Shown: in pieces, positions 1 through 42,204 of the stretch
Position numbering within the stretch: the stretch's first letter is position 1
Layout of the letters: each line of letters opens with the position of its first letter
Origin: a virus
Strand: one strand, 5' to 3'
DNA length: 64,000 bases
Virus record (IMG/VR): IMGVR_UViG_3300045988_187870
Made by a program: the position numbers and the translations under genes
Notes under the pieces: model-generated
What the model saw: the letters and a program-made list of their open reading frames with translations, nothing else
What the model was told of the DNA's origin: nothing
Database searches by the model: none

Positions 1-192
1 ATATGTTTATTGTATTTGGGTATCATGAAAAGCTATTTTCTTGGAACAATCCTACACACTTTATGCTGCGTGTGTGTGATAACTGCGTAGTGTATCGTGA
101 TTGGATGGTTTAATAAACTAGGCGTGTGCAGCCGTTTAGTAGTATGTCATAATAATCTTTAGAAGGAGGCTGTCCCACCCTCCTTCCAACAG

Positions 193-240
193 TAGGATCC
201 TTCAGATCCTTCAACGCTCTATAGTAATGCACAGATATGA
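193..240 (+). repeat. Copy A of a conserved ~45-bp element containing the GGATCcttcaGATCC palindrome; second copy at 1300-1350
   Basis: caacagtaggatccttcagatccttcaa...tagtaatgca versus caacagaaggatccttcagatccatcaa...tagtaatgca. Confidence 0.5.
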
Positions 241-272
241 CCAGCTACTGTCTATTGTGAAAGGAGTACTTT

Positions 273-1127
273 ATGTACAATTACAGCAATTTGGTACACA
301 CTGTTGTAGCTAGTGGTGAAAGATATGCCGCTAGAGTACACAAACAGACTATGCCATTTATGGTTCTGAGGCGTTTGGCAGCGGAGGATAATATGAACTC
401 CACATTTAAGAGTGCAAATATCTCTGCAGGTAGAGCTGTGGAGTACACTTTACGTGGTTTACGTGATACACTGACCGCTCGTAAGGAAGATAAGCCTAAG
501 CTTATGCGCATTTGGGACAGTGGATTCTTGGCTTTGACAGAGATCCTGCGCATTTATGGTGTGAAGATTGTAGAAGGTAGTCATTGTGCGGCAACGCTGT
601 ATAAGACGCTTAAGTCCATTGGTTATGACGTCTTAACAGAGAGCTTTTACAGGGCGAATAACTCAAAGCACATGACAGTTAGGATGTTTAGTCATGCTCT
701 TGCATACCCTGCAATGTATACATCTGCAAATATTTGTCAGCGTACAATAGCTCGTATGCAGCGGCTGCATACCAGATATGGTATCAATATTGAGATGAGT
801 GATTTTTCTGACGAGCAGCGTATTGATGTTGTTAATCTGACAAAGACGATTATTGACTGTGCAGAGGTATCCGGCTACTACTACACGTTTAGATACTTTG
901 CTGCTTTTGCTCCGAGATTTAAGCTCTCTGACCAGTTAGTGAAGAGCATCACGGACTGCCTTGACCACGAGAATTACAATAAGAATGTACTCTTACAGGT
1001 TTATTGGGAGCTCAGGAAGTTAAACGCACAGGGTGAGTTGCCTGAACAGCAGGGTATCATCTACTTATTTGACTTGTATGGTGGACCTTATTTCAACGCC
1101 GGGTACACTAATGTCTTCGGACGTTAA
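273..1127 (+). CDS. hypothetical protein (284 aa)
   Basis: ORF with the RBS gaaaggag 7 nt upstream of the ATG. Confidence 0.6.
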   Translation: MYNYSNLVHTVVASGERYAARVHKQTMPFMVLRRLAAEDNMNSTFKSANISAGRAVEYTLRGLRDTLTARKEDKPKLMRIWDSGFLALTEILRIYGVKIVEGSHCAATLYKTLKSIGYDVLTESFYRANNSKHMTVRMFSHALAYPAMYTSANICQRTIARMQRLHTRYGINIEMSDFSDEQRIDVVNLTKTIIDCAEVSGYYYTFRYFAAFAPRFKLSDQLVKSITDCLDHENYNKNVLLQVYWELRKLNAQGELPEQQGIIYLFDLYGGPYFNAGYTNVFGR

Positions 1128-1228
1128 GTCAGTATAAAGTGTACATTTAGCAGGTTGTAGATCAGGATAACAGAATGAATCTGACTGATTCATTAAGTAG
1201 TTACAGTAATGTGCCATGATGATAAGCA

Positions 1229-1300
1229 ACCTGCACAGCGCATGCAGCTGTGATATTGTAGGCTGATAGTATCTTTGGAGCTGCTGCATGCACTGTGCAG
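1229..1300 (+). other. long imperfect inverted repeat (arms ~22 bp: ctgcacagcgcatgcagctg / cagctgctgcatgcactgtgcag) in a 520-bp non-coding gap
   Basis: arms that are reverse complements of each other, read directly from the sequence. Confidence 0.4.
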
Positions 1301-1350
1301 CTCCAACAGAAGGATCCTTCAGATCCATCAAGTTGTTGTAGTAATGCATC
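1300..1350 (+). repeat. Copy B of the conserved ~45-bp element with the GGATC...GATCC palindrome
   Basis: about 85% identical to 193-240. Confidence 0.5.
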
Positions 1351-1576
1351 ATTTCAGAAGGCAGTATCAAATTATTTTATATTTGTGTGATAACAGATAC
1401 AGTTACTTAGGCTTCATGGCAGTAGTCATGAAGTTTTTATACGGACAGGGCTTTAGCAGCAGTTAAGGCTGAATGTAGGGAATGCCACAAGAGGTGGCAC
1501 AACGCTTGATGGTGGGTTTGAGGCATAACGAGATGACAATTTGCGCATGAGCAGAAAGTCATAACCAAATAGTATC

Positions 1577-28699: not shown

Positions 28700-29033
28700 G
28701 CGACACCCACAGAAACCAGTAGCTACTTTAGCAGTTGTTGAAACAGGCAAACATAGCACTAATCAGTATACTATAAAAGTGCATGCAGACAGTAATCCAT
28801 CGCTTTCCTTAAAGGTTCTAGTTAAACATGCAGGAACAACAACAATTACAGGCAAACGTGCAGCAGACTGGATAGCAGGAAGAGCGACTCCAGCCGGACG
28901 ACAAAATATAGGTGATGTATTACATGCTGTTGGGCTGAGATCTTATGATGCTTGGGGTATTGTACAGGGACACAAGTGCAGATGCACCAGAGATCATATT
29001 TATATGGAGGAAATACAGGACGATCATAAGTGA
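28665..29033 (+). CDS. hypothetical protein (122 aa)
   Basis: RBS atttggaggagatacaact. Confidence 0.5.
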   Translation: MPKTRTFLLKDERHPQKPVATLAVVETGKHSTNQYTIKVHADSNPSLSLKVLVKHAGTTTITGKRAADWIAGRATPAGRQNIGDVLHAVGLRSYDAWGIVQGHKCRCTRDHIYMEEIQDDHK

Positions 29034-29052
29034 CCGTCCTGTGTTTGTTTAG

Positions 29053-30130
29053 AAGGAGTAAAATGAAAACAAAATCTGAATTATTTGAAAAGCTTAGATG
29101 TCCAAGTCAGAGCGATAAGATACTGCTGCTTACTCACACAGATCTTGACGGTGCAGGAGCAGCAATCTTAGCACGCCTTCATTATGCTGATGTAACAGTT
29201 AAACATTGCCCCAATAATACAATGAGCAGAGATATTCTTGAAGCATGTTTAGCAGAACCTAATGAATATGACTTCATTTTTGCTTGTGATATCTCATGTA
29301 ATGACGAAGATGCTGAGAGCATCGAAGCTTCTCCTTGGGCAAGAGACCATTTTGTTCTTATCGATCATCATCCAACTGCAATGTGCCTGAATTCCTATAA
29401 CTGGGCAGTTATTTACTCAGATATGGTTGCAGATAGCTTCAGAGTAAAGGAGTACCCTGACCCTAGTCTAGGTCATTCTTCAGGAACTGGGCTGTTTTAT
29501 GATTATCTATGTTTTAATTATAAAGATGATAATATGCACCCAGCTGTTAAAGAGTTTGTTCGTTTAGTCTCAATGTATGATACCTGGGATTGGACAACTA
29601 TCTTTAACTGTACAGAAGCAAAAGAGTTATCAGCACTATGCTTCCTATACGGATTAGAGTATTTTGAAGAAACAATGAACGACAGATTGTCTGATTCTTC
29701 TTGTAAGTGTTTATTTAATTGTACAGATCAGATTATTCTCAAATGCGAAGAGAATAAGATTAAATCACACATCGAGCGCATTCGCAAGTCATACAAATAT
29801 GGTACAATCACTTTAGCAGGAGTAACATACAATATTGTCTATTGCGCAACTTCACAGTATCTTCCTCAGACTTTTGAGGATATGAAAATCAGATATCCAG
29901 ACCAAGATATTTATATGATTAATTGCGGGAATACAATATCTATGCGTTCACGTAAGGACAGTATAGACCTTGGACCTATTGCAAAACAGCTTGGTGGCGG
30001 TGGACATGCCGGAGCAGCAGGTGTGCCTATTCCTTATGAAAAGCAGATAGCATATTTTGAATCTGCAATTGGATCTAAGTTTAATTACCAACTTGACAAT
30101 GGTCAGACAGATCTCTTTAGCAGGAGGTGA
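29053..30130 (+). CDS. DHH/DHHA1-family phosphoesterase (NrnA-like)
   Basis: LLLTHTDLDGAGAAIL (DHH motif) and C-terminal GGGGHAGAAG (DHHA1 GGGH motif); RBS agaaggagtaaa. Confidence 0.65.
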
Positions 30131-31232: not shown

Positions 31233-31259
31233 TTCATATCAAAATATTTGGAGGAAATT

Positions 31260-32771
31260 ATGGAAATCAATTTTGGTTTAGTAGTACCTATAGCAATTAT
31301 TGCTCTTGCAATTATTATAATCTTTAGCTCTGGTTATCGCAAAGCACCACCAGACAGAGCTTATATCATAAGTGGTCTGCGTAAGAAGGCAAAGGTTGTT
31401 ATCGGTAAGGCAACAATAAAGCTTCCTTTTCTTGAGCGTTGTGATATTCTGGAACTTGCTCTGATGTCCGTTGATGTTAAGACTGCCCAGGCAGTTCCAA
31501 CAGCGGATTACATAAATATTTCCGTAGATGCTAATGTTAACGTTAAGATATCACCTGATCCTGACACAATTGCACGCGCTCAGCAGAACTTCCTTAACAA
31601 GAATGTTGATTATATCACAAAGGTAGCTCGTGAGGTACTCGAAGGCAACATGCGTGAGATTGTAGGGCAGATGCGTCTTGAAGAGATGGTCTCCAACCGG
31701 CAGGCATTTGCGGACAAGGTAAAGCAGAATGCAGACCCAGACCTCCGTGCAATGGGTCTTGAAATAGTATCGTTCAACGTGCAGAACTTCGTTGACGACA
31801 ACGGTATCATCAACGACATGGGTATCGACAACACCATGCAGATCAAAAAGAAGGCGGCCATCTCCAAGGCAGAAGCCGAAAGAGATATCAAGATCGCCCA
31901 GGCTGAAGCAAATCGTAAGGCTAATGATGCTAAGGTTGATTCTGAGACCGCCATTGCAGAGCGTGAGAACGAGCTTGCAATAAAGCAGGCTGAACTCAAG
32001 CGCGCCGCAGACATTAAGCAGGCAGAAGCTGATGCAGCCTACACTATTCAGCAGGAAGAGCAGCGTAAGACCATTGAGATAACCACTGCAAATGCAAATA
32101 TAGCAAAGCAGGAGAAGGAAGTCGAAATCAAGGCGAAGGAAGCTGAGATAAAGGAACGTGCTCTTGAAGCAGAAGTAAAGAAGACCGCTGAAGCTCAGAA
32201 GTATGCAGCACAGCAGAAGGCAGACGCAGAGCTGTACACAGTTCAGCGTAGTGCTGAAGCTAAGAAGTATGAAGACATACAGAATGCAGAGGCAGAGCTG
32301 GAAATTAAGAAGAACGAGGCTGCAGCAATTCTAGTAACTGCACAGAACGAGGCAGAAGCTGCGAAGGCTAAGGCAGAAGCTTCCCGCTATGCTGCTGAAC
32401 AGGAGGCAGAAGGTATTCGTGCTAAGGGCGTCGCAGAAGCAGATGCTGTTCGTGCTAAGTCTTTAGCAGAAGCAGAAGGTCTTGATAAGAAGGCAGAAGC
32501 AATGCGTAAGATGGAAGAAGCCGCAGTACTTCAGATGTATTTTGAGCAGATGCCTGCTATAGCAGAAGCAATTGCCAAGCCACTTGAGAATGTAGATAAG
32601 ATCACTATGTATGGCGATGGTAATACAGCAAAGCTTATCAAAGATATTACTGAAGCCACTACGCAGGCATCATCAGGACTTCTTGATGGTCTTGGTATTG
32701 ATCTTAAGTCTTTAGTAGGTAGCTTTGTAACGGGTAAGGCAGCAGCTGCAGGGATTAAGTCCGAGCAGTAA
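31260..32771 (+). CDS. SPFH/band-7 flotillin-like protein with a long Ala/Glu/Lys-rich coiled coil
   Basis: N-terminal TM helix, SPFH core (RAYIISGLRKKAKVVIGKATIKLPFLERCDILEL), EA-rich heptads typical of FloT/YqiK; RBS tttggaggaaatt. Confidence 0.75.
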   Translation: MEINFGLVVPIAIIALAIIIIFSSGYRKAPPDRAYIISGLRKKAKVVIGKATIKLPFLERCDILELALMSVDVKTAQAVPTADYINISVDANVNVKISPDPDTIARAQQNFLNKNVDYITKVAREVLEGNMREIVGQMRLEEMVSNRQAFADKVKQNADPDLRAMGLEIVSFNVQNFVDDNGIINDMGIDNTMQIKKKAAISKAEAERDIKIAQAEANRKANDAKVDSETAIAERENELAIKQAELKRAADIKQAEADAAYTIQQEEQRKTIEITTANANIAKQEKEVEIKAKEAEIKERALEAEVKKTAEAQKYAAQQKADAELYTVQRSAEAKKYEDIQNAEAELEIKKNEAAAILVTAQNEAEAAKAKAEASRYAAEQEAEGIRAKGVAEADAVRAKSLAEAEGLDKKAEAMRKMEEAAVLQMYFEQMPAIAEAIAKPLENVDKITMYGDGNTAKLIKDITEATTQASSGLLDGLGIDLKSLVGSFVTGKAAAAGIKSEQ

Positions 32772-32826: not shown

Positions 32827-33004
32827 AAATGTGTTATAGTAGACAGGGGCGATGAATATTATAACCCACAATCAGGCCATTTAACAGTTTAAAAACTAAA
32901 GGATATAACTATGTATAAAGGACAAAATTAATTGATCTGCGTATATTACAACGCGTTCAAAGAATTGTCGAGCAATCTTTAGCAGGGAAGGGTGTGACGG
33001 TGAT

Positions 33005-33397
33005 ATGGAGATAAAACCAGCTGTACAACATATGCAATTCAGGAGTGAAGATACTCCAATTTGTGATGTTTGGTATTGTTTTGCAACGAACTTTATAAAG
33101 GTTGTGAATCACACAGATAATTGGCTTATACTTCCATTTGGTAAAAAAGATCCATCCACAGTCACCCTTGAATACTTTGAGAATATCTTAGAAGAATTCT
33201 ATTGTTTTCCTAGAACTAGGAATAAGTGTCAAGAGATACTTGCAAGCATGGGTTTATGCTGCTATGATCCACTTGCAATAGTTCACATAACACATGGATT
33301 TATGTGGGGAACTCATGAGTGGATACATTTTGATGATGATCCACCTGGATTTAATTATGAACAGTTAAGAAGATTGCATAACCGAGGGTCAGATTAA
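33005..33397 (+). CDS. hypothetical protein (130 aa)
   Basis: ORF. Confidence 0.45.
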   Translation: MEIKPAVQHMQFRSEDTPICDVWYCFATNFIKVVNHTDNWLILPFGKKDPSTVTLEYFENILEEFYCFPRTRNKCQEILASMGLCCYDPLAIVHITHGFMWGTHEWIHFDDDPPGFNYEQLRRLHNRGSD

Positions 33398-33434
33398 TTA
33401 TCTGACTCTTTTCTTATTGTGTTTGGAGGTATGT

Positions 33435-34022
33435 ATGAGAATTTATTATCATGGTACATCAATTGAAAATGCTAGAAGTATCTTGAAGAATGGATTTGGT
33501 GCAGATACCACAATCTGGTATGCTTCTTATCTTAAGTATGTTTATATGCGCGAAGCAGTATCTTCGGAAGCTGGAGAAGATACTTATAATGAGACAATAC
33601 ACTCCGCATTTACAACAGCAGCTATCTGCAATTCACAGGAGAACGGCGTAGCAATATTTCAAATAGAAATTCCAGAGTCTTTAGCAGGTTGTGTTGAGCC
33701 GGATGACTCGGTTGAATATGATGAAAACAGTTATCAGATAGAAGCTGAGCAGCTTAATAAGTTCATTGCTGATGGGAGTATAAAGATTGAGTGCAGGGTT
33801 TTAGAAGGATATAGACCAGAATTCCGTAGCTTTGTGTTAGCGTATACTAATCTAACGCAGATTAATATATCAGACGAAATTAAGCAGGAGCTCAACACTA
33901 TAATATACAATTTTAAATCTGACTTACAATTTTCAGTGTTCGAGTGGATAGAATCTAAGTACAAGCCTTGGGAGAGTCTGAAGGAGCTCAGCTCCACGAC
34001 CGAGACAAGTTACTTTGATTGA
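33435..34022 (+). CDS. hypothetical protein with an N-terminal motif reminiscent of H-Y-E class ADP-ribosyltransferases (IYYHGTS...A..I...GF...Y.SY.KY)
   Basis: resembles the diphtheria-toxin-like SYHGTKPGYVDSIQKGI NAD-binding motif; tentative. Confidence 0.3.
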   Translation: MRIYYHGTSIENARSILKNGFGADTTIWYASYLKYVYMREAVSSEAGEDTYNETIHSAFTTAAICNSQENGVAIFQIEIPESLAGCVEPDDSVEYDENSYQIEAEQLNKFIADGSIKIECRVLEGYRPEFRSFVLAYTNLTQINISDEIKQELNTIIYNFKSDLQFSVFEWIESKYKPWESLKELSSTTETSYFD

Positions 34023-34048
34023 AATTATAAAGATTAAGGGAGTTTTAT

Positions 34049-34807
34049 ATGGAATTTGCACCTGAGCTTATAGAAGACCTCGAGAAGTATGTTTCGCCAA
34101 CTGGTAGTTATATTGTTCCAGTTAAGTGGAGTAGCTATGGTACAATATGCGTTGAAGCCGACAACTTATATGATGCTTTGACAAAACCTTTAGCAGGCGT
34201 TGACATTAGGGATATCATAGAACGCTACGATTGGAGCCCTGGAAGTAATGATTTACAACTTGCAGAGGGTGATGAAGAGTACTACGACTTTTTGCAAGAG
34301 GCAACAGTGGAAGAAGCATTTGAAATAATACACAATGCTGTCACTGTTATATACAAAATAAACAAACTAGTGTATTTTTATGTTTGGTTACGTCACTTAG
34401 ACGATTATCAAATTGAGCCAGAATACTTCTTTGTTCCAAACAAGACAAATTTAACATCTGTATCAAATGCAGTATGCAATACATATTATCGTGTACAAGG
34501 TATGTTAAGAAGCTGGGTGCTAGCTTTAGCTGATAGAATTCATTTAATATATCCAAACTTTAATGTAAACGCAGATATACTGCATGAAATAAACACTTAC
34601 TTTCATGAAGACAAGCACATGACTGTGAATTACTGCAAAGAACAACTAAAGAATATTATTGCGATCCTTGAATCTTTAGCAGGGGATAAAAGCACGCATT
34701 CGTATATTTTGAGTGAGTTCCCAGAGATTAAATTCTCTGCAGACTCTAAGGTCGTAAGAGAGGCATTTGGCAATTATGCAATAGAGGTAACATACAATGA
34801 AAGTTAA
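34049..34807 (+). CDS. hypothetical protein (252 aa)
   Basis: RBS aagggagtttt. Confidence 0.55.
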   Translation: MEFAPELIEDLEKYVSPTGSYIVPVKWSSYGTICVEADNLYDALTKPLAGVDIRDIIERYDWSPGSNDLQLAEGDEEYYDFLQEATVEEAFEIIHNAVTVIYKINKLVYFYVWLRHLDDYQIEPEYFFVPNKTNLTSVSNAVCNTYYRVQGMLRSWVLALADRIHLIYPNFNVNADILHEINTYFHEDKHMTVNYCKEQLKNIIAILESLAGDKSTHSYILSEFPEIKFSADSKVVREAFGNYAIEVTYNES

Positions 34808-35033
34808 AGAGGATAGCTTGATTGCTTGCTTGGCATTACTTATTGCAGTGTTGTTCTTGTTATTCGCTGTAGGTATTAGTTTGTACGCAATAGCACTTGA
34901 TAATGCAGAATATGCACAGATAGAAGCTGGAAAAGTGCAGGATTTGCGTACAGAGCCATGGGAAGGAGGTAAATCTATTGATTCGACACGCAAAACTACT
35001 AGATATGCCGTGGATCCTAAAATCTGCGCGTAA
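34797..35033 (+). CDS. small membrane protein (78 aa)
   Basis: overlapping ORF with a TM helix. Confidence 0.35.
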   Translation: MKVKEDSLIACLALLIAVLFLLFAVGISLYAIALDNAEYAQIEAGKVQDLRTEPWEGGKSIDSTRKTTRYAVDPKICA

Positions 35034-35874
35034 TTTATGTTATCTGAAAAAAACATACACAGCAGATTTGCCATCATGGATATTAAATAAAAGCCTGTAT
35101 GTATATGAGTCTAATGGACGACTTATGGGATTGCTTGGATTTTGCATTGTTAACAGAGTCCTAGTCATTGACTGCGTTTATGCAGTTGGGTTTAGTGCAG
35201 ATGTAAAGCAGAAAGTGATAAAAGAGCTAATTGATTTTGCAGTTCAATCATGTAACGGGTTAGCAGACAAAATCGAAATCGAATTTGACGCAGTTAGTAA
35301 CGAGTCTACAGACTTAGCAGTATTGGAAGAGTACAAACTGAAGATGACCGAATGTAAAGTGGTTAGTTCAACATCACGATTAGAAATGCCAGACGGCTGT
35401 TCAACTGCAAAATGGGGTGATCTCCAATATTTGCGAGCATTACTGAATGGAATGTGTAAGGAGTTAGACTATACTGACGAGGAAAAAGAAACTATTACAT
35501 ATCGTTATATTGAAAACTATAAAAGCACTATTGTCTACAAAGACATTGCGAATGGTAGAGTGCTTGGTTTTGCAGCAATATGCAATGCAGATGCAGGCTC
35601 CAGTTTAGGAATGGGTGTTGCAGATATTGATGTTCTTTACGTTACACCGGATGCACGTAGAAGAGGAATAGGTAAGAAGTTGGTCAATGCATGCTTAGCA
35701 TTAGCAGGTAAACGACATGCACATTTCCTTGAAACAACCATTGATGGAAGTGCTATTGATTATATCAGCATGTATAGAGACTTTGACATTGCTGTCTTTT
35801 CTGGTATTGCTAATTACCCTAGTTCGACTGTCGATACAACCCTTACACAAATACAATCAAAAGTGTTTGAGTAA
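34978..35874 (+). CDS. tandem GNAT-family N-acetyltransferase (TTG start)
   Basis: VLYVTPDARRRGIGKKLVNACLALAG (GNAT motif A); strong RBS ggaaggaggt 7 nt upstream of the TTG. Confidence 0.6.
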   Translation: MIRHAKLLDMPWILKSARNLCYLKKTYTADLPSWILNKSLYVYESNGRLMGLLGFCIVNRVLVIDCVYAVGFSADVKQKVIKELIDFAVQSCNGLADKIEIEFDAVSNESTDLAVLEEYKLKMTECKVVSSTSRLEMPDGCSTAKWGDLQYLRALLNGMCKELDYTDEEKETITYRYIENYKSTIVYKDIANGRVLGFAAICNADAGSSLGMGVADIDVLYVTPDARRRGIGKKLVNACLALAGKRHAHFLETTIDGSAIDYISMYRDFDIAVFSGIANYPSSTVDTTLTQIQSKVFE

Positions 35875-35883
35875 GGAGATAGT

Positions 35884-36364
35884 AATGATATGTTTTCTTT
35901 GCGGTAAACCTTTAGCAGGCAAACGTACTGCAAAATATTATTTGGCATCAACCATTATACGTAAGTGGACAAATCCTAACAGCATTCAGACAAAGCCAGA
36001 GCTGTCCATAAAGGTTGAGACACATGCTTCATGTGCTGCAAGATATCAGGGCACAATAACACTTCTTGCATCTGAGCGATTTAAAAGTCTTTCAGAAGCA
36101 GATCAGGTGCGCTATAGATCAGCTTATGACAATTCTATTAGTATAGCACGTTATGTTAATACTCTTAGCAAGGTAGTTAGAAGTCAGAATAACAAATGTG
36201 CATATTGTGATACAAAAATTACTATGGAAACAGCAGTTCTTCGACGCAGAGACTGTTCAAAACCTAGAGTATGCTGGAATGCAGATGCTGTTTGCATTGA
36301 CTGCAACCATCTGATGAATAAAATCAATTATCAGCTTGAAAGGAGTCAGTGTGGATCTTCTTGA
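35884..36364 (+). CDS. Zn-finger / HNH-like nuclease-domain protein, translationally coupled to the RT
   Basis: N-terminal CxxC; C-terminal KCAYCD...RRRD...N...CIDCNHL resembles an HNH motif; RBS aaggagatagta; the stop overlaps the RT start. Confidence 0.35.
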
Positions 36365-37568
36365 AGCACTATTTGAGCAGGACATTTGGGAAAATGTTAT
36401 TGACAAAGGAGCAGACAAGACAATACCATTATCAGTGCTAAGGAAGTGGTGTCATGTAGATAAACGTCTTGAACTACTGAATAAGATTATTGCAGGTGAG
36501 TACAATATCAAACCTCCAACTCTTGCTCGGATACCTAAAGACAATGGAAAATACAGAGAAATCTGTGTTAACACTGCTGATGACAGAGTTGTTTTAGCAG
36601 CTGTTAATCAAGCACTTTATAAACTGTTTGATTATAAGCTTTCTCCTGCATGTAAAGCATATCGAGAAGGACATAGCTGTGCTAAAACAGTGCAGGAAGC
36701 AGTGAAACACAAAATGTTCGGGTATAAGCTTGATCTGAGTAAGTACTTTGATTCTGTTCCTCATGAAGTCATTAATAAAGCTTTAGCAGAGCTTGACACT
36801 GATTCTCCACTAGAGCAAGTATTGTATAAATATTACAATGATGATACTGTCTATCAGAACCATCAGCTCATTCCGAGATTCAAGTCTCTAGCACAGGGTT
36901 GCGCTGTAGCATCATTTTTAGCTAACTATATTCTGACAGATGTTGATAACAGAATGATGCAGGAATGTCTTTACTATTGTAGATACTCAGATGATATGCT
37001 GCTCTTGTGTGAGGATCAGCAATCTGCAGATAAAGCTTTAGCAGTATTAAAGCAGATGCTTGATAAACTTGGATTATCTCTAAATCCAGACAAGGTCGAG
37101 GCAATCTCTCCTTTAGCAGAGTTTAAGTTTCTTGGTTTTGGTATTCTTGGCGATACGATAACCATATCACAGAAAGATTTCAAGCAAAAAAAGGCAGAAG
37201 TTAAACATGCCTGTAGAGTGGTTGAGACGAATAGAAAGATTTCTAAAGATAAGAAACTCAGAGCTGCTATTAAAGCTGTTCAAAAGGTGTTTTTCTCAAC
37301 TGCAGATCCATCTTATGGTTGGCTCCATTCAAAAGCTATGGGAATAAATAATTTTGAACGTATTGGTGAGCTCGATGCCTACTGTAAGGATTGCATTCGT
37401 GCAGCAGTGACAAGTAGTCAGAATTATACACACAATATTCATACCATTTCAAATGAGCAGCTATCTTTAGCAGGATATGTATCTTTGGTGCATATGGCTA
37501 AGCTTGTTCAGATTGATAAATCCCTGTATGAGACAGAGCATTTGCTGCATATTCAGCAACATAAGTAG
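36351..37568 (+). CDS. reverse transcriptase (RT domain motifs 1-7 plus a C-terminal thumb/X-like region); group-II-intron-like (FLGF), class unresolved
   Basis: IPKDNGKYREI, DRVV, LDLSKYFDSVPH, QGCAVASFLANYIL, YCRYSDDMLLL, LSLNPDKV, FKFLGFGI; GTG start 7 nt after aaaggag. Confidence 0.85.
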   Translation: MDLLEALFEQDIWENVIDKGADKTIPLSVLRKWCHVDKRLELLNKIIAGEYNIKPPTLARIPKDNGKYREICVNTADDRVVLAAVNQALYKLFDYKLSPACKAYREGHSCAKTVQEAVKHKMFGYKLDLSKYFDSVPHEVINKALAELDTDSPLEQVLYKYYNDDTVYQNHQLIPRFKSLAQGCAVASFLANYILTDVDNRMMQECLYYCRYSDDMLLLCEDQQSADKALAVLKQMLDKLGLSLNPDKVEAISPLAEFKFLGFGILGDTITISQKDFKQKKAEVKHACRVVETNRKISKDKKLRAAIKAVQKVFFSTADPSYGWLHSKAMGINNFERIGELDAYCKDCIRAAVTSSQNYTHNIHTISNEQLSLAGYVSLVHMAKLVQIDKSLYETEHLLHIQQHK

Positions 37569-37733
37569 TTAATTATACCGGTGCTAACGGTGCAAGATGC
37601 TTAGCTTGCTATAATTTTGCCATCATAGGAGGTAAACCTCCTTATATGAGAGCTGGGATCATAGATCCCTAATGTCTTAAAGCAATTAGCCAGTGCAAGA
37701 AGAGTATCTAACTAACTATAGTAGGGAGATATT

Positions 37734-38633
37734 ATGGCAAATAAGTATTATTCGCTGCAAGGTAAGCTAAAGAAAAACGGTGAACTCTATAACTTTAAGA
37801 TTCACAGATGTAATCTATACGGCTTTAGTCGTTCATCATTACTTCCTTTCATTCCGAATGGGCGCAGATATTATGCCCCAACACTAAAGCAGATTATGCA
37901 GCTTCTGCGTGTGTATAAGCAATATACAGATTGGCATACATCTCCATCTGACGCTAATTTCTCTAGTTGCTTGCTAGAACGTACAGATTACTTTTTAGTA
38001 CTTCGTCAGATATATTCTCAGCAGCTTTTTGATAGTATTTCAAGCATCCTACATAAGGGTATTTATGAATATCAGATGGAGATTGAAATTAATGAGCACT
38101 CATGGCTTAAGGAAGATGAAGAGAATCTTAGTAGCGAAGAAAAGTGTAAGGCAGTATACGTGAACATGTATGAAATCGCGCATAGAATGCTGAGGGACTT
38201 GCGTAGAGCAAATGGTAATAGAGTAACTGTCATGACTGTTCAGCCAACAACTGTGAACTACTCTTCTGATAAGGAACGTTATAATGATTATCTTTCGAAC
38301 GGTTCAGCATTCTACAAGTGTGGTGAAGCTTTAGCAGTACCTTCTAGTTATCATTCTAATGGACCGCATGCAGATGTGTGTCTTGCACTTGCACTTACAC
38401 TTGCACTTGCTTATAGGGCTTATGGTGCATATGTATTCCTTATGGGTGATGCAACTTACAGAAAGACTCCGCTTTACCCGGAGGAGACAAAGATAGCATT
38501 TGATGAGTATAAGAGAGTGCTAGCAACAGGCGGAGATATGATGAGTATTCTTATTGCATATGCTGATGCGATTGCATATGTGCATCGTAGAGGACATCGA
38601 GCATCACGCACTGAAACAAATTGTTTTGTATGA
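37734..38633 (+). CDS. hypothetical protein (299 aa) downstream of the RT
   Basis: RBS tagtagggagatatt. Confidence 0.55.
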   Translation: MANKYYSLQGKLKKNGELYNFKIHRCNLYGFSRSSLLPFIPNGRRYYAPTLKQIMQLLRVYKQYTDWHTSPSDANFSSCLLERTDYFLVLRQIYSQQLFDSISSILHKGIYEYQMEIEINEHSWLKEDEENLSSEEKCKAVYVNMYEIAHRMLRDLRRANGNRVTVMTVQPTTVNYSSDKERYNDYLSNGSAFYKCGEALAVPSSYHSNGPHADVCLALALTLALAYRAYGAYVFLMGDATYRKTPLYPEETKIAFDEYKRVLATGGDMMSILIAYADAIAYVHRRGHRASRTETNCFV

Positions 38634-38648
38634 TAAAGGAATAGTATT

Positions 38649-39167
38649 ATGATTGATGCAGCAACAGTTTATGACTGGATTCTTGAACTACCACAGGACG
38701 CATTGAAATATTTTTGGTGTATCTTAGACGATGAAAAGCTCTTCTTTAGAAGAACTCTCGTGTACGAAAGAGGGAAGTTCATTGCTTCAATTAAGTCTAA
38801 GCTTATAGGTGAGACAAGTGCCAAGGAGCTGAATAGGATTCCACTCATCACTTTAGCAGGTACTGAAAATTGGCAGACTGTTGTTGCATCCCTTTATGAT
38901 AACTATAAAACCTATGTTCCTAGCTATGACAAAAAGTATTTAAACTTTCCCTGTATGAATAAAAACACGTTTGATCCTTTTACCATGCGTCCAGCAGATG
39001 ATTATGATCGTTTAGCGCTTGAACTCTATGTCTTATTTCACAAAGCACAGAATGATTTAACTTGGCCGGATGACGATAGATTCTTTATAAAAGTATCAAA
39101 TGACTGTGCAGTATACAGGAAGTGGATAACTGGCTCACGCAGTCTTGCAAGTAGTTATTTTAAATAA
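38649..39167 (+). CDS. hypothetical protein (172 aa)
   Basis: RBS ataaaggaatagtatt. Confidence 0.55.
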   Translation: MIDAATVYDWILELPQDALKYFWCILDDEKLFFRRTLVYERGKFIASIKSKLIGETSAKELNRIPLITLAGTENWQTVVASLYDNYKTYVPSYDKKYLNFPCMNKNTFDPFTMRPADDYDRLALELYVLFHKAQNDLTWPDDDRFFIKVSNDCAVYRKWITGSRSLASSYFK

Positions 39168-39196
39168 TGGTGCTTTTATCTACTGATAAAACCACA

Positions 39197-39222
39197 CAAC
39201 CAGCCTACCGGCTGGTCAGTTT
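39197..39222 (+). terminator. putative terminator (7-bp stem, loop TACC, T5)
   Basis: aaccagcc tacc ggctggt cag ttttt. Confidence 0.45.
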
Positions 39223-39279
39223 TTGTAGTATCGTGACAGAAGTAAAGGCTTGCAAAATCTTTAGAAGGGACAAAGATAT

Positions 39280-40197
39280 ATGAGTAATGTATTACAGGAA
39301 AATCTACAGAAATATCATGGGAGAATTTCTGTTGCAAAACGTCATGCCCTATACAACAAGGTACTTTCAACCGGAGAACTTTATAACCCACATGTTCACG
39401 CTTCCTTTGCTCCATGGCAGTTTCTTAAAATGTGGAATGGTACGACATCCACGATGAGAACACCTAATCCTGAAAAGGTCATTACAGCAGCACTTAGAAT
39501 GCTGAAGATCTTGAAGGATTACAATACAGATGAGGACTCATATAAAGCAATTGAGAATATTGTATATGAGAATGAGGTAGAGGAATCCTTAAGACGAATC
39601 CTAAGTTTTAGCAGATATTGCCTTGATGAAAACTTTGATAAGGAGTTTGAATGCTATCCATCTGTTGAATCTGTTCTGCGAACCTTTGGCGTCACATTAA
39701 GAACAGTAGAGTGCTTCGGTCCACGTCGAGTAGGTACATTGGCATACTGCTATCTTGTATTTCCATATACATATCGTGCATATATTGCATGTACATCAAG
39801 GGACATGGGTACTATTGATAAGCCATCTAATAGGATTTCAAATTCAATGTCTACATATTTCATTGTGCATCAGGGTTCCGCATATCGCGTTAGACAGAAT
39901 ATAGAGAAGTATGTAGATATTCCTGAGTTTGGAGATATCTATTATGATTTCTTAATGTGCACAGAGCATTTGTGCAGGGCTTATCTAGACTTTGGTAGAT
40001 ACCTTACAATAAAATACTTCTATACGTTCAGAGATAAATATAATATCTCTGATGATTTAGCAGACGAGTTAAAGGAAGCTCTAGATTATGCCAAACAGAC
40101 AGCTTGTGCTTATCATCAAACTGATGATATAATGCTTACTTATTTAAAGGATAGTGTGATGCTATCAGAAACAGCAGAAACTAAATATTTCAGTTGA
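39280..40197 (+). CDS. hypothetical protein (305 aa)
   Basis: RBS agaagggacaaagatat. Confidence 0.55.
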   Translation: MSNVLQENLQKYHGRISVAKRHALYNKVLSTGELYNPHVHASFAPWQFLKMWNGTTSTMRTPNPEKVITAALRMLKILKDYNTDEDSYKAIENIVYENEVEESLRRILSFSRYCLDENFDKEFECYPSVESVLRTFGVTLRTVECFGPRRVGTLAYCYLVFPYTYRAYIACTSRDMGTIDKPSNRISNSMSTYFIVHQGSAYRVRQNIEKYVDIPEFGDIYYDFLMCTEHLCRAYLDFGRYLTIKYFYTFRDKYNISDDLADELKEALDYAKQTACAYHQTDDIMLTYLKDSVMLSETAETKYFS

Positions 40198-40210
40198 AGG
40201 AGGTGATATC

Positions 40211-40429
40211 ATGCAGATAAAGCTAAACAGTATACAGGATGTGAAAGATTTCGTCAATGCAGCCAATAAATCGGCGAAAGAGATTGACGTGAAGAGCGGA
40301 CGTTATAGTGTTGATGCAAAATCATTGCTTGGAATGTTTTCACTTGATCTTTCCTGTCCTGTTGACGTAATTGTTTCTGGAGAACCTGATATGGAATTTA
40401 CAGAGGCAATTCAGAAGTTCTCAATTTAA
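40211..40429 (+). CDS. hypothetical small protein (72 aa)
   Basis: RBS ttgaaggaggtgatatc. Confidence 0.6.
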   Translation: MQIKLNSIQDVKDFVNAANKSAKEIDVKSGRYSVDAKSLLGMFSLDLSCPVDVIVSGEPDMEFTEAIQKFSI

Positions 40430-40492
40430 GATCATACCTGCTTTAGCAGTTATGAAATATACATTATTTTTTTTCAATGGAGGATTATACCA

Positions 40493-40837
40493 ATGAAGAG
40501 ACTTATTACACTAGCAGCAATTGCTGCTACCATCGCAATTACAGCAACTTGCGCATCTGCAGAAACAGTCGAGCCTGAGGTTAATTATGACGACCAGGTA
40601 GTACTCATTTCTGCAACCGAGGAGTCAGTACCTGCTGTAGGTTCTACTGTAGAGGTGACTGACACAGTCACATCCGAAGCCGAGACAGTTGCAACTGCCG
40701 AAGTCAATACAGTGACTCCTGCTACTGTGGAGGCAGATGACAAGGGTTCCCCTGACACCGGCGTTGAGGGCGTAGCTGCTCTTGCAGGTATTGCAGTTCT
40801 TGCAGCGGGTGCAATTATTCTTACTCGCAAGAAGTAA
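40493..40837 (+). CDS. small surface protein with a signal peptide and a C-terminal sortase sorting signal SPDTG + hydrophobic segment + RKK
   Basis: MKRLITLAAIAATIAITATCASA ... KGSPDTGVEGVAALAGIAVLAAGAIILTRKK; matches the (S/P)PxTG motif of Clostridioides-type sortase B. Confidence 0.6.
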   Translation: MKRLITLAAIAATIAITATCASAETVEPEVNYDDQVVLISATEESVPAVGSTVEVTDTVTSEAETVATAEVNTVTPATVEADDKGSPDTGVEGVAALAGIAVLAAGAIILTRKK

Positions 40838-40941
40838 TCTTTAGCAGATATGAGGAGAGTCAGCCACAGGCTCTCCTCTTCATATCAGTACAAAAAGGTA
40901 ACTGTCTTTGAGTGCTGTCCATAACTATCGGAGGTTTATTC

Positions 40942-41334
40942 ATGTATCATATCTCAATTATCAATAGAACTAATGGCCTTAAGAAGACATTTCAGCTTCT
41001 TGAGCCATCAAAGTATTTAACAGATGAAGGTATCACATTTTGTTCAGACAATGCATGGGATGGCATGCTTCACTTTATTCCATGCAGAGGAGTAGACAAG
41101 AATATTAGCATAACTTATAAGGTTCTTGGTAGAGTAGGTGACGCACGTACAATCAATGATGTACTGAAGTCAGCAGGAAGAATTTTTATAGCTGAGCAGG
41201 TTATTATTAAAGATGCACATAATAAAACCTTGTGTAGCTGTTCACCCTGTGAAGTTCCTGATAATTTAAGAAAGCTTAAGTATTCGTCAGTATACAAGAT
41301 TAGTAACAAATATTACTTTAAGGTAGGAGAATAA
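40942..41334 (+). CDS. hypothetical protein
   Basis: RBS atcggaggtttattc. Confidence 0.5.
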   Translation: MYHISIINRTNGLKKTFQLLEPSKYLTDEGITFCSDNAWDGMLHFIPCRGVDKNISITYKVLGRVGDARTINDVLKSAGRIFIAEQVIIKDAHNKTLCSCSPCEVPDNLRKLKYSSVYKISNKYYFKVGE

Positions 41335-41340
41335 AGACTA

Positions 41341-42204
41341 ATGAAAATGCAATCCACAGCCATTGCGCTGTTATGTAGCATTATGGCTGTAACACAGTTA
41401 TCTGGCTGTGAAATGGTGCAAAATGCCTTAGGTTCTAATAAGCAAACAGTCGATTACTCGGAAGTATTAGCAAGGTCTGACTCATTCTTTAGCAGTAAAC
41501 CAAGTGCTATAAATATTGAAGAAATCTCTAATACACTTAGACTTGAGTATGTGTATGGAGATTATTTTTCTGTCACAGAAACTTATAAGTTTGAGAATAA
41601 TGCGGTCCAGACAACCACAATTGTATATCCTGGAGAAATAAGCACAGTGCCAGAGTTCGTTTACTACACAAACAACACATTATCAACAGCAAATCTCCAG
41701 GCAACAATAAGTGGCACATATAAGTGGACAGGAGAACCACTGCTTATTCCAGGAATAGCAAATCTTGATCAGGAACACGCAGTACCTTTAGCAGAACAGC
41801 TGAAGGAGGAAGTAGACAACAACCCGGGCATTCCGCCTGACTTCATTTTGCCGTCAGAAGAGCAAACAGATGCGATCACACAGGAGACAATTGACACTAA
41901 TGAAGATGCTATTACACTACCTGGTTTGACAGATAATGGTTTATCAATTTTGGAATATTCTGATAACACACTTACAATGGATAAGTATGCTATTCACGTT
42001 GGAATAGACAAAGAGCGCCAAATTACAATAGCACAATGCCCTAAAGATTATGTAGATAAGCTTGTGTTCATTTCCGATAATCCTACAATTGCTTCAGTAG
42101 ACTCTAAAGGTATAGTAAGAGGTCATAAAAATGGGTCTGCAACTATAACAGTTACAGTTGATGGCGCTGCAGGATATTCTAGTATTATGGTGTATGTATA
42201 CTGA
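41341..42204 (+). CDS. lipoprotein (lipobox LSGC) with a C-terminal bacterial Ig-like (Big_2) domain
   Basis: MKMQSTAIALLCSIMAVTQLSGC; C-terminal ...ATITVTVDGAAGYSSIMVYVY. Confidence 0.55.
   Translation: MKMQSTAIALLCSIMAVTQLSGCEMVQNALGSNKQTVDYSEVLARSDSFFSSKPSAINIEEISNTLRLEYVYGDYFSVTETYKFENNAVQTTTIVYPGEISTVPEFVYYTNNTLSTANLQATISGTYKWTGEPLLIPGIANLDQEHAVPLAEQLKEEVDNNPGIPPDFILPSEEQTDAITQETIDTNEDAITLPGLTDNGLSILEYSDNTLTMDKYAIHVGIDKERQITIAQCPKDYVDKLVFISDNPTIASVDSKGIVRGHKNGSATITVTVDGAAGYSSIMVYVY

What the first reader, a model, noticed from the sequence alone, without database searches (positions are those of the whole stretch)
34978..40197. Reverse-transcriptase module with an upstream overlapping Zn-finger/HNH-like ORF and a GNAT, flanked by unknown genes
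ORF 36351-37568 has the complete RT motifs 1-7 (IPKDNGKYREI, DRVV, LDLSKYFDSVPH, QGCAVASFLANYIL, YCRYSDDMLLL, LNPDKV, FLGF) plus a ~150-aa C-terminal extension. The FLGF and QG signatures point to a group-II-intron-like or G2L lineage.

It is not a DGR RT, because motif 4 lacks the DGR-type SQ. It also lacks the retron NAxxH and VTG signatures.

The start of the RT overlaps the stop of a 160-aa Cys-rich protein with an HNH-like C-terminus (KCAYCD...RRRD...N...CIDCNHL), so the two are translationally coupled. A tandem GNAT lies just upstream, and three co-transcribed unknown proteins of about 300, 172 and 305 aa lie downstream.

I could not identify a domain V-like hairpin, so a canonical intron RNA is not evident. 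This could be a defence-associated or element-specific RT system of unknown type. The co-occurrence with a genome-wide strand-specific motif invites the question of whether the two are linked.
Basis: partly seen in the sequence, partly recalled or inferred. Interest (0 to 1): 0.72.

Follow-up and report, generated by a model that had tools for sequence, protein, structure and literature searches.

The report
Phage UG27 reverse-transcriptase system with RNAs

Summary
The reverse transcriptase (RT, 36351-37568) is not of unknown type. It scores 307 bits (E 4.6e-92) on the UG27 profile, a class 2 UG/Abi RT that Mestre et al. 2022 described in human-gut phages. The 172-aa downstream protein is UG27's "cluster 346" partner, which six other lineages fuse to the RT C-terminus.

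It has very strong covariation. Copies nc1 (37574-37714) and nc2 (39126-39260) lie in the finding. Three more lie at the window start (118-256, 1132-1232, 1233-1373) and belong to a second, truncated UG27 system. Distant UG27 phages also carry several copies.

The 299- and 305-aa proteins are divergent paralogs, each preceded by an RNA copy. The GNAT and Cys-rich genes occur only in syntenic close relatives. HNH similarity is sub-threshold, and the candidate catalytic His is Cys here. No intron, retron or DGR features were found. The TTTAGYAG motif tracks the phage lineage, not UG27.

Verdict: a new member of a known kind.

The parts
34978..35874 (+). GNAT acetyltransferase (298 aa). A neighbour in this phage lineage only; not shown to belong to the RT system.
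   Evidence: Pfam Acetyltransf_1 E 1.6e-12 on residues 168-257. The N-terminal half gives no hit. Homologs next to the RT occur only in L092, L001, L002 and L093. dN/dS 0.16.
35885..36364 (+). Cys-rich 159-aa protein with two predicted zinc sites (C3/C6/H47/C50 and C105/C108/C137/C140). Its stop overlaps the RT start by 14 nt.
   Evidence: Sequence and alignment A11. Sub-threshold Endonuclease_7 hits. Only 3 clusters found in 5.8 billion proteins. AF2 pLDDT 43.
36351..37568 (+). UG27 reverse transcriptase (405 aa), class 2 UG/Abi, with catalytic residues intact.
   Evidence: PADLOC RT_UG27 E 4.6e-92, 307 bits. RVT_1 E 6e-32. 2688 homologs at E<=1e-20. Invariant D128, Y212, D214, D215.
37574..37714 (+). 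Structured RNA copy nc1. Hairpin H0 37577-37591. Closing stem P1 37595-37609 pairing with 37695-37709. P2 about 37622-37649. P3 37655-37669. Pseudoknot 37583-37587 with 37686-37690.
   Evidence: CM R1, built from two other phages: 18.7 bits, E 0.015. CM R2: 74 bits (R2's seed included L096, a 98%-identical relative). Fold z-score -2.7. Covariation.
37734..38633 (+). p299, a fast-evolving paralog of the ~300-aa UG27-associated protein. It shares only the N-terminal ~90-aa domain (KY..L...GE.YN..H).
   Evidence: dN/dS 0.10 against L092, 67.6% aa identity. Family profile hits p299/p293 at 18.6-25.8 bits; hhalign E 9e-5. No Pfam, PADLOC or PHROG hits.
38649..39167 (+). p172, the UG27 'cluster 346' partner protein. 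Its last 13 codons read through the 5' part of nc2.
39126..39260 (+). Structured RNA copy nc2. H0 39129-39143. P1 39145-39160 pairing with 39240-39255. P2 about 39168-39197. P3 39199-39216. Pseudoknot 39135-39139 with 39232-39236.
   Evidence: CM R1: 78.8 bits, E 7.5e-18. R2: 97 bits. Fold.
39280..40197 (+). p305, the ~300-aa protein that follows the RNA element. Ortholog of L001 341 aa and L093 338 aa, and paralog of p284 and p299.
   Evidence: tblastn 33% identity to L001 and 32% to L093. Alignment A2. Only 5 relatives among 1.84 billion representatives. dN/dS 0.26.
1..113 (+). 3' end of the cluster-346 gene of a second UG27 system (system A). Its RT lies upstream of the window.
   Evidence: Window 1-1286 is 97.3% identical to L005 7522-8807, where the order is RT, 346, IGR, 284 aa.
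118..256 (+). Structured RNA copy nc0 of system A (pseudoknot 126-130 with 228-232).
   Evidence: CM R1: 19.8 bits, E 0.0078. R2: 93 bits (R2's seed included L005, the 97%-identical counterpart).
273..1127 (+). p284, the ~300-aa protein of system A.
   Evidence: Matches the 284-aa product of L005 over the 97.3%-identical DNA stretch. BLASTP to p305 E 6e-4.
1132..1373 (+). Two tandem RNA copies after p284: 1132-1232 (short, weaker) and 1233-1373.
   Evidence: R2: 29.3 bits (E 2e-4) and 88.2 bits. R1: 33 bits for 1233-1373. Sequence read.

Best explanation
The finding is a UG27 reverse-transcriptase system (class 2 UG/Abi, Mestre et al. 2022) carried by a jumbo human-gut phage.

Shown:
- The RT is a UG27 member.
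- p172 is its conserved cluster-346 partner, which other lineages fuse to the RT C-terminus.
- p299 and p305 are two divergent paralogs of the ~300-aa protein that accompanies the system in this clade.
- Two copies of a ~135-nt pseudoknotted three-way-junction RNA (nc1, nc2) lie directly upstream of those two genes, on the coding strand.
- The same phage carries a second UG27 system at the window start with three more RNA copies.
- Several RNA copies per system is a family-wide trait.

Inferred (about 0.3 for the whole chain):
- The RT-346 enzyme binds the RNA through the invariant U.G plus AG/AG internal loop and the pseudoknot.
- It uses the conserved single-stranded stretch (UUGUAGYAA...) or adjacent sequence as a template to make a short or repetitive cDNA, as the related ncRNA-dependent RTs DRT2, DRT9 and DRT10 do.
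- The fast-evolving ~300-aa proteins act with that RNA/cDNA complex for the phage's benefit, either as counter-defence or as competition with other phages. They would not serve as a host defence.

GNAT and the Cys-rich zinc protein are lineage-specific upstream neighbours that may be co-expressed. They are not demonstrated parts of the system.
For: - RT_UG27 at 307 bits against UG26 at 193 bits.
- RTas346 hit. The 346 family is found in 80 of the 96 sequences searched (95 loci plus the window).
- RT-346 fusions in six loci, tested with a profile built only from stand-alone proteins: domain E 1e-20 to 1e-22.
- Published UG27 description: gut phages, clusters 336/337/346, an intergenic ncRNA, no defence-island enrichment (PMC9226505).
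- Phage identity: major head protein phrog_422, E 4e-63. Contigs of 195-382 kb.
- RNA specificity: a CM built from two other phages finds exactly four full-length hits in the 64-kb window, all inside UG27 modules and all on the + strand. R2 adds a fifth.
- RNA covariation: 92.9% of cells paired against 53% in shuffles, and 38 of 39 pairs with double changes.
- Pseudoknot, which the CM did not model: 96.6% paired against 50% in shuffles and 22-45% with slid partners.
- Untrained copies are found in L095 (64 and 57 bits). An independent distant set shows 90% pairing.
- The second system is shown.
Against: - No experimental data exist here on transcripts or cDNA. The template role of the RNA is by analogy only.
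- Homology of p305/p284 to the canonical post-346 protein of distant UG27 loci is not demonstrated (hhalign probability 14%).
- P3 followed by a U-run in nc2 scores as a terminator-like site, so a cis-regulatory role is possible.
- CM-derived alignments lean towards the modelled structure.
- Hits in distant loci are weak (17-34 bits), and TRF sees no sequence-level tandem repeat there.
- A 2026 preprint that discusses the UG27 ncRNA and cDNA (10.64898/2026.09.22.753630) could not be read. It may contradict or supersede the mechanism.
Confidence: 0.8

Rival explanations
1. The repeated RNA elements are cis-regulatory leaders or attenuators of the downstream genes. They might be bound by the conserved N-terminal domain of the ~300-aa proteins for autoregulation, or act as terminators. 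On this view they are not RT substrates.
For: - nc0, nc1 and nc2 each lie immediately upstream of a ~300-aa paralog, with the ribosome-binding site 10-20 nt after the element.
- The paralogs share only their N-terminal domain.
- nc2's P3 plus its T-run scores as an intrinsic terminator.
Against: - Copies also occur with no ~300-aa gene downstream: window 1132-1373, two tandem copies after the gene in L095, and a copy after a 125-aa gene in L094.
- Distant loci hold several copies in a row upstream of the 346 gene.
- The T-run after P3 is absent in nc0 and nc1.
- Elements are found only beside UG27 genes.
- A pseudoknotted junction with a conserved single-stranded segment resembles known RT-bound ncRNAs.
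Confidence: 0.15
2. The system works like a retron. P1a plays the role of the a1/a2 stem. The invariant G of the UAG internal loop, just 3' of that stem, is a 2'-OH priming (branching) G. The RT then copies the 3' strand inward to give an RNA-linked ssDNA.
For: - The closing stem is formed by the 5' and 3' ends, with an invariant U.G pair (12 of 12) and an invariant G immediately after it.
- The geometry recalls the retron msr/msd, where the branching G follows the a2 repeat (established retron knowledge).
- Several copies occur per system.
Against: - The RT scores far better on UG27 than on retron profiles (E 4.6e-92 against 1e-17).
- No Rfam retron RNA hit.
- The AG/AG loop is equally well read as tandem sheared G.A pairs, a protein-binding motif.
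- The analogy is structural only.
Confidence: 0.08
3. It is a bacterial-type anti-phage defence system (a DRT) that the phage carries to exclude competing phages, with the ~300-aa proteins as abortive-infection effectors.
For: - Its closest profile relatives are DRT/UG groups.
- Several paralogous, fast-evolving effector-like proteins are present.
- Relatives occur in Bacteroidales and Firmicutes assemblies, possibly as prophages.
Against: - UG27 shows no defence-island enrichment and is predominantly viral (PMC9226505).
- Here it sits in a 300-380-kb phage with a head gene nearby.
- No effector domain is recognisable.
Confidence: 0.15
4. GNAT and the Cys-rich zinc protein are true components: a five- to six-gene operon with an acetyltransferase and an HNH/Endo VII-like nuclease working with the RT.
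For: - Tight packing, and a 14-nt overlap between the Cys ORF and the RT.
- GNAT-Cys-RT order is conserved in L092, L001/L002 and L093, down to 68% RT identity.
- The same weak Endonuclease_7 region appears in all four homologs, with a conserved CxxC...CxxC.
Against: - Those loci are syntenic over the whole region, including the flotillin, p201 and HPr-like genes. Co-occurrence there is therefore not independent evidence.
- RT relatives at 53-56% identity (L003, L005, L094, L095) and all IMG/VR loci examined lack both genes.
- The candidate catalytic His is Cys or Tyr in the window clade.
- There is no HNH hit at profile level.
Confidence: 0.15
5. It is an ordinary group II intron or a G2L-type RT.
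For: The best-scoring solved RTs by sequence include group II intron RTs (6ar1 E 1.7e-27, 7uim E 2.4e-26).
Against: - No Intron_gpII or any other intron RNA family in the whole window at gathering thresholds, nor at E<=1 around the RT.
- UG27 profile at 307 bits against a generic RT profile at 133 bits.
- No maturase or endonuclease domain detected.
- The conserved neighbours are UG27-specific.
Confidence: 0.01

Closest known systems
UG27 systems (class 2 UG/Abi RTs) of human-gut phages, Mestre et al. 2022 (PMC9226505)
   Same: - The RT profile match.
- An adjacent cluster-346 protein.
- A ~300-aa accessory protein.
- A structured ncRNA in the intergenic region next to the RT.
- A phage carrier from the gut, with no recognisable effector domains.
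   Different: - The window's RT subclade (50-99% identity hits) is absent from IMG/VR, where the best match is 41%, and from 185k species genomes.
- The gene order differs: RT, RNA, p299, 346, RNA, p305. Distant loci instead have an ORF-free stretch, then 346, then a ~300-365-aa protein.
- There are two systems in one phage.
- GNAT and a zinc protein lie upstream.
- Homology of p305 to the canonical post-346 protein is unproven.
- I could not compare my RNA model with their Supplementary Figure S6 ('three long stem-loops').
DRT2 (UG2): RT plus a pseudoknotted ncRNA that is copied by rolling-circle reverse transcription (PMC12039810)
   Same: - A class 2 UG/Abi RT with no fused effector.
- Depends on a neighbouring pseudoknotted ncRNA.
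   Different: - DRT2 is a bacterial defence with a single ncRNA upstream of the RT and no 346 or ~300-aa partners.
- Sequence similarity is weak (PDB 9c0i E 2.5e-11 over residues 177-314).
- No cDNA product is known here.
DRT9 (UG28) and UG26/UG17
   Same: Next-best profile matches after UG27: UG26 at 193 bits, UG17 at 120 bits and Drt9 at 109 bits. UG28 also has a conserved ncRNA (PMC9226505).
   Different: - Lower scores.
- Different neighbours (SLATT, Vsr-like).
- Bacterial defence context.
Retrons
   Same: - An RT with a dedicated structured RNA whose 5' and 3' ends pair.
- A conserved G next to that stem.
   Different: - Retron RT profiles score far lower.
- No Rfam retron RNA.
- The RNA lies downstream of the RT and in several copies.
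- The accessory genes differ.
Group II intron RTs and CRISPR-associated RTs
   Same: The RT fingers/palm motifs. These are the best-scoring solved structures by sequence (7kft, 6ar1).
   Different: - No intron RNA and no maturase/En domains.
- No Cas1/Cas6.
- The family-specific profile is UG27.

Membership tests
UG27 system (class 2 UG/Abi) | The RT belongs to the UG27 sequence group. | tested here: met
   PADLOC RT_UG27 E 4.6e-92, 307 bits, covering residues 8-362 against profile positions 5-358 of 420. The next best is UG26 at 193 bits.
UG27 system (class 2 UG/Abi) | An associated cluster-346 protein. | tested here: met
   p172 hits RTas346 at E 2.3e-6. It is orthologous to the protein directly after the RT in L001, L003 and L005. 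The family occurs in 80 of the 96 sequences searched (95 loci plus the window). It is fused to the RT in six loci.
UG27 system (class 2 UG/Abi) | An associated cluster-337 (and 336) protein. | tested here: inconclusive
   p305, p284 and p299 occupy the equivalent position. Comparison with the post-346 protein of distant loci gives hhalign probability 14%, E 0.0019, limited to one N-terminal motif. There are no PADLOC hits. The cluster 336/337 sequences themselves were not available.
UG27 system (class 2 UG/Abi) | A structurally conserved ncRNA in the intergenic region beside the RT. | tested here: met
   nc1 lies directly after the RT. Covariation is shown. Related elements occur in distant UG27 loci. 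Identity with the published model could not be checked.
UG27 system (class 2 UG/Abi) | Encoded in a phage genome, not in a defence island. | tested here: met
   Major head protein at 5908-7104 (phrog_422, E 4e-63). One-strand gene packing. Near-identical RTs (98-99%) occur on contigs of 195 and 382 kb.
Group II intron | Intron RNA domains (I-VI, domain V) around the RT ORF. | tested here: not met
   The Rfam gathering search of the whole window finds only a tmRNA. An E<=1 search of 36900-40300 finds nothing relevant.
Retron | A retron-type RT and an msr/msd RNA. | tested here: not met
   The best retron RT profile reaches E 2.2e-17 against 4.6e-92 for UG27. There is no Rfam retron RNA.
Diversity-generating retroelement | A template/variable repeat pair near the RT. 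| tested here: not met
   The only direct repeat of 30 nt or more in 33000-42000 is a 73% chance match that contains the TTTAGCAG motif.
HNH / His-Me finger nuclease (Cys-rich ORF) | A significant match to an HNH-superfamily profile or fold. | tested here: inconclusive
   Endonuclease_7 hits at E 0.099, 4.6, 1.5 and 2, all below the cut-off, over the same region in four homologs. No HNH chain in the PDB profile search. The AF2 model has pLDDT 42.8, so no fold search was run.
HNH / His-Me finger nuclease (Cys-rich ORF) | A catalytic His preceding the conserved Asn and the second CxxC. | tested here: not met
   At the aligned position the window and P0123 have Cys and P0122 has Tyr. Only L001 and L093 have His.
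GNAT acetyltransferase | A match to GNAT profiles above the curated cut-off. | tested here: met
   Acetyltransf_1 at 48.2 bits against a cut-off of 20.7, residues 168-257. A second (tandem) GNAT domain was tested and not found.

The most novel reading that the evidence does not exclude
UG27 may be a modular, multi-cartridge reverse-transcription system of large phages. Each cartridge would be a pseudoknotted RNA handle or template, often paired with its own rapidly diversifying ~300-aa protein. One RT-346 enzyme would serve several cartridges: two systems, five RNAs and three paralogs in this phage, and arrays of four or more RNAs in others. It would convert part of each RNA into DNA during infection to disarm host defences or rival phages. 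The retron-like geometry (terminal stem plus invariant loop G) would then mark a new priming mode outside the retron family.
Probability: 0.12. Interest if true: 0.8.

Novelty: new member of a known kind. Interest (0 to 1): 0.4.

Why it matters
UG27 is one of the few reverse-transcriptase families that live mainly in phages rather than in bacterial defence islands, and its function is unknown. This locus adds the following:
- A divergent subclade from jumbo gut phages.
- A concrete, covariation-supported RNA model: a three-way junction plus a pseudoknot.
- Evidence that the RNA comes in several copies per system.
- Evidence that cluster 346 is a physical partner of the RT, from the fusions.
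- A pairing of RNA copies with fast-evolving paralogous proteins.

Together these give defined constructs (RT plus p172 plus nc1/nc2) for testing what a phage does with a reverse transcriptase. None of it overturns the published picture, and a 2026 preprint that I could not read may already cover part of it.

Tried and rejected
- **Single-protein scan of viral contigs with the RT:** no close relatives. An alignment query was needed.
- **Reading the 2026 'Minerva' preprint (10.64898/2026.09.22.753630):** four look-ups failed. Only term counts were obtained: UG27 74, 'UG27 ncRNA' 11, cDNA 24, 'cDNA synthesis' 3. Probes for a multi-copy description were uninformative.
- **Mestre supplements:** not held. 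Clusters 336 and 337 could not be mapped directly.
- **Cys-protein structure:** pLDDT 43, unusable.
- **PDB profile search for the Cys protein:** only zinc-finger noise.
- **MAFFT alignment of the RNA copies:** it put the hairpins out of register. It was replaced by a two-sequence seed plus Infernal realignment.
- **TRF on the ORF-free gap of L046:** no sequence-level tandem repeat. The array there rests on CM hits only.
- **First 346 profile:** it was contaminated by fusion ORFs. The test was redone with stand-alone proteins.
- **Codon usage as the cause of the TTTAGYAG excess:** rejected. There are 73 in-ORF sites against 8.9 +/- 2.9 in synonymous shuffles.
- **A link between the motif and UG27:** rejected.
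- **Sigma-70 promoter scan:** no more sites than in shuffles.

Full report
**1. Observation.**
- The RT starts at GTG 36351, five bases after AAGGAG, and ends at 37568. The Cys-rich ORF starts at ATG 35885, after GGAGA, and ends at TGA 36362-36364. The two overlap by 14 nt.
- Pfam confirms RVT_1 (E 6e-32) and one GNAT domain (E 1.6e-12, residues 168-257).
- The N-terminal half of the 'tandem GNAT' has no detectable GNAT similarity.
- Against L092, a metagenomic locus with the same gene order and 87% RT identity, all six genes show purifying selection (dN/dS 0.06-0.26). This includes the 299-aa ORF at 0.10.
- Synonymous divergence differs strongly between genes (0.15 for p305, 0.24 for p172, 1.1 for the RT, about 2 for p299). 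That points to recombination between modules.

**2. What the RT is.**
- Against PADLOC profiles the RT scores 307 bits (E 4.6e-92) on RT_UG27 over nearly its whole length. UG26 follows at 193 bits, a generic RT at 133 bits, and retron RTs at about E 1e-17.
- Mestre et al. 2022 (PMC9226505) defined UG27 as a class 2 UG/Abi RT. They found it mostly in predicted human-gut phages of Bacteroidetes and Firmicutes. They described gene clusters 346 and 337 (and 336), an intergenic ncRNA 'with three long stem-loops', and no enrichment in defence islands. They suggested an addiction or anti-defence role.
- The window's 172-aa protein hits PADLOC's RTas346 model. It aligns with the small protein that directly follows the RT in relatives.
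- An iterated profile finds this family in 80 of the 96 sequences searched, that is 95 loci plus the window.
- A clean profile of 74 stand-alone members matches the C-terminal ~100 residues of six long RT ORFs (L019, L038, L042, L078, L088, L089) at domain E 1e-20 to 1e-22. This gene fusion argues that the RT and 346 work as one enzyme.

**3. Context.**
- The window is phage DNA. It encodes a major head protein (phrog_422, E 4e-63), and every ORF of 180 aa or more lies on one strand.
- Near-identical RTs (98-99%) sit on contigs of 195 and 382 kb. The 97%-identical counterpart of the window start (L005) comes from a 303-kb contig.
- The window's RT subclade (50-99% identity) comes only from metagenomes. 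The best IMG/VR relatives reach 41%. In 185,579 species genomes the best match is 42% on a partial locus, and full-length matches reach at most 39%.
- Contig ODUK01000010.1 carries two UG27 RTs 35 kb apart. Window 1-1286 is 97% identical to the region after the second RT in L005.
- The window therefore begins inside a second UG27 system: the 346 C-terminus at 1-113, an RNA, and p284 at 273-1127.

**4.
Folding the intergenic regions of several relatives showed one shared architecture:
- a short 5' hairpin, H0 (CCGG-N7-CGG);
- a long closing stem P1, interrupted by an internal loop (UAG on the 5' strand, A-R-G on the 3' strand);
- two strong hairpins, P2 and P3, of variable sequence;
- a 24-nt joining stretch, J, that holds UUGUAGYAA.

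Specificity and covariation:
- A covariance model seeded only with L001 and L093 was run with filters off on the whole window. It gives exactly four full-length + strand hits below E 0.1: 39126-39260 (78.8 bits), 1233-1373 (33), 118-256 (19.8) and 37574-37714 (18.7).
- On the 12-sequence structure-guided alignment, 92.9% of cells pair, against 53% in shuffles and about 42% with slid partners. 38 of 39 pairs show double changes, and one U.G pair next to the loop is invariant.
- A second model scores the window copies at 74-97 bits. Near-identical relatives of these copies (L005, L096) were in its seed. It adds a short tandem copy at 1132-1232 (29 bits). It also finds two tandem copies in L095 that were not in the training set (64 and 57 bits).

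Pseudoknot:
- The H0 loop is complementary to part of J. The pairs are TCATG/CATGA in L001, CCATG/CATGG in L093, TCACG/CGTGA in nc2, GCTAA/TTAGC in nc1 and GTGCA/TGCAC in nc0.
- The CM did not model these five pairs. They are nevertheless 96.6% paired, against 50% in shuffles and 22-45% with slid partners, and all five show double changes.
- This is the least biased evidence that the RNA is real and pseudoknotted.

Other points:
- No Rfam family matches the element.
- nc2's H0 and the 5' strand of its P1 lie inside the last 13 codons of p172. That protein has an 11-residue extension relative to its orthologs.

**5. Copy number and arrangement.**

| Locus or system | Order of genes and RNA copies |
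|---|---|
| Window system B, L092, L096 | RT, nc1, p299, 346, nc2, p305 |
| System A (L005) | RT, 346, nc0, p284, two tandem copies |
| L003 | one copy before and one after the 302-aa gene |
| L094 | one copy at the RT 3' end and one after a 125-aa gene |
| L095 | two tandem copies after the 306-aa gene |
| L001, L093 | one copy detected |

- In distant IMG/VR-type loci, a 0.25-1.0-kb ORF-free stretch usually precedes the 346 gene, even when the RT is 1-5 kb upstream.
- The model places several consecutive hits in those stretches, for example L046 at 11654-11834, 11839-12002, 12003-12164 and 12305-12463.
- These hits are weak (17-34 bits), and TRF sees no sequence repeat there. However, the independent 11-sequence alignment is 90% paired against 56% in shuffles, with covariation in H0, P1 and P2. 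P3 is replaced by an insertion.
- Several direct copies per system is therefore a family trait.
- I could not establish whether this has been published.

**6. The ~300-aa proteins.**
- p305 is orthologous to the protein after the RNA in L001 and L093 (33% and 32% identity).
- p284 is a paralog (BLASTP E 6e-4).
- p299 shares only the N-terminal ~90 residues with the family (profile scores of 18.6-25.8 bits; hhalign E 9e-5).
- The family is tiny and fast-evolving. An exhaustive HMMER search of 1.84 billion representatives finds 5 members.
- Homology to the canonical post-346 protein of distant loci is not established (probability 14%). The only aligned segment is the same N-terminal motif.

**7. 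GNAT and the Cys-rich protein.**
- Both occur next to the RT only in L092, L001/L002 and L093. Those loci are syntenic with the window well beyond the module (flotillin, p201 and the HPr-like gene).
- RT relatives at 53-56% identity lack both genes.
- The Cys protein has two invariant zinc-type quartets.
- All four homologs give the same sub-threshold Endonuclease_7 match over CxxC...CxxCN. A PDB profile search shows no HNH relative, and the AF2 model failed.
- At the position of an HNH catalytic His, L001 and L093 have His, the window and P0123 have Cys, and P0122 has Tyr.
- A His-Me-finger-derived zinc domain is plausible. An active nuclease in this window is unlikely.

**8. The strand-specific motif.**
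- TTTAGYAG occurs 99 times on the + strand and 3 times on the - strand.
- In ORFs there are 73 sites, against 8.9 +/- 2.9 after synonymous shuffling. 66 of the 73 are in the frame nnT-TTA-GCA-Gnn, and Leu-Ala dipeptides are themselves in excess.
- The motif is equally dense in the related phages L001, L003, L005, L092, L093, L096 and L099. L095 has the variant TCTAGCAG.
- It is absent from L094/L097, which carry the same RNA family, and from all distant UG27 phages.
- It is a property of the phage lineage and possibly a Chi-like or other polar signal. It is not tied to UG27.

**9. Mechanism.**

Shown:
- UG27 identity.
- The RT-346 partnership.
- A pseudoknotted multi-copy RNA confined to UG27 modules.
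- Paralogous ~300-aa genes behind RNA copies.

Inferred by analogy with DRT2 (PMC12039810), DRT9/UG28 and DRT10 (bioRxiv 10.64898/2026.06.29.735271, abstract seen):
- RT-346 binds the RNA and copies part of it into DNA.
- The ~300-aa proteins act downstream.
- The phage, not the host, benefits.

I put about 0.3 on that chain. Alternatives are a cis-regulatory leader (0.15), a retron-like priming variant (0.08), and a phage-carried exclusion system (0.15, at the level of function).

**10. Verdict.**
This is a real feature that was misclassified as 'unknown type'. It is a new, divergent member of the published UG27 family. Useful added detail comes from the RNA model, the copy number, the fusions, and the presence of two systems in one jumbo phage.

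Noticed in passing
whole window, + strand (e.g. 1146, 3309, 12033, 30116, 36593, 37037): TTTAGYAG occurs 99 times on the + strand and 3 times on the - strand. In ORFs there are 73 sites against about 9 expected from synonymous shuffles, mostly in the frame nnT-TTA-GCA-Gnn. The motif is shared by related phages, L095 has the variant TCTAGCAG, and L094/L097 and distant UG27 phages lack it. It looks like a polar, lineage-specific DNA or RNA signal of unknown function.
   Followed up: partly
window 14002-14380 (+): Full-length Rfam tmRNA match (123.7 bits, E 7e-48) inside the phage genome. ARAGORN reports no tmRNA or tRNA anywhere in the window.
   Followed up: no
window 1-1648: Tail of a second UG27 system: the 346 C-terminus, an RNA copy, p284 and two tandem RNA copies. 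An ORF-free stretch then runs to 1648, before a DUF4869 gene. The RT of this system lies just upstream of the window (as in L005).
   Followed up: yes
L019, L038, L042, L078, L088, L089 (RT ORFs of 537-594 aa): Natural fusions of the UG27 RT with the C-terminal ~100 residues of the cluster-346 domain.
   Followed up: yes
L046 11469-12486; L020 11020-11672; L011 7258-8189; L007 (BS-TP1) 6252-7600: A 0.9-1.35-kb ORF-free stretch lies upstream of the 346 gene in distant UG27 phages. In L046 and L020 the RNA model places three to four consecutive weak hits there. L007 and L011 gave only E>0.1 hits.
   Followed up: partly
window 38649-39260: The p172 ORF has an 11-residue C-terminal extension that reads through hairpin H0 and the 5' strand of the closing stem of nc2. 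Coding sequence and RNA structure overlap for about 35-40 nt.
   Followed up: yes
window 34978-40197 vs L092: Synonymous divergence differs more than tenfold between adjacent genes (p305 0.15, p172 0.24, GNAT 0.47, RT 1.1, p299 about 2). This suggests recent recombination that swaps modules within the locus.
   Followed up: partly
window 40211-40429 (+): A 72-aa HPr-like protein (PTS-HPr, 28 bits, above the cut-off) lies directly after p305. It is conserved in the same position in L092, L001/L002 and L093.
   Followed up: partly
L007 = PQ571274.1 79351-80613: The UG27 RT of the cultured Bacteroides phage BS-TP1 is annotated as 'tail protein' in GenBank. This phage could serve as an experimental model.
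   Followed up: no
window 3339-4073 (+): A 244-aa protein made of three near-identical repeats (KTWC.Q.G.FGQQL..EW ... KV.WRC.KGHEWY ... CPYC). The equivalent gene in L005 carries a DUF4379 annotation.
   Followed up: no
window 31248-32771 and 29030-30130 (+): The phage encodes a flotillin/Band_7-like protein, 93% identical in L001 where Pfam families Band_7 and Flot are recorded. It also encodes a DHH-family phosphoesterase-like protein, by weak Pfam marks on the truncated upstream DHH/DHHA1-marked gene at the start of L092.
   Followed up: no
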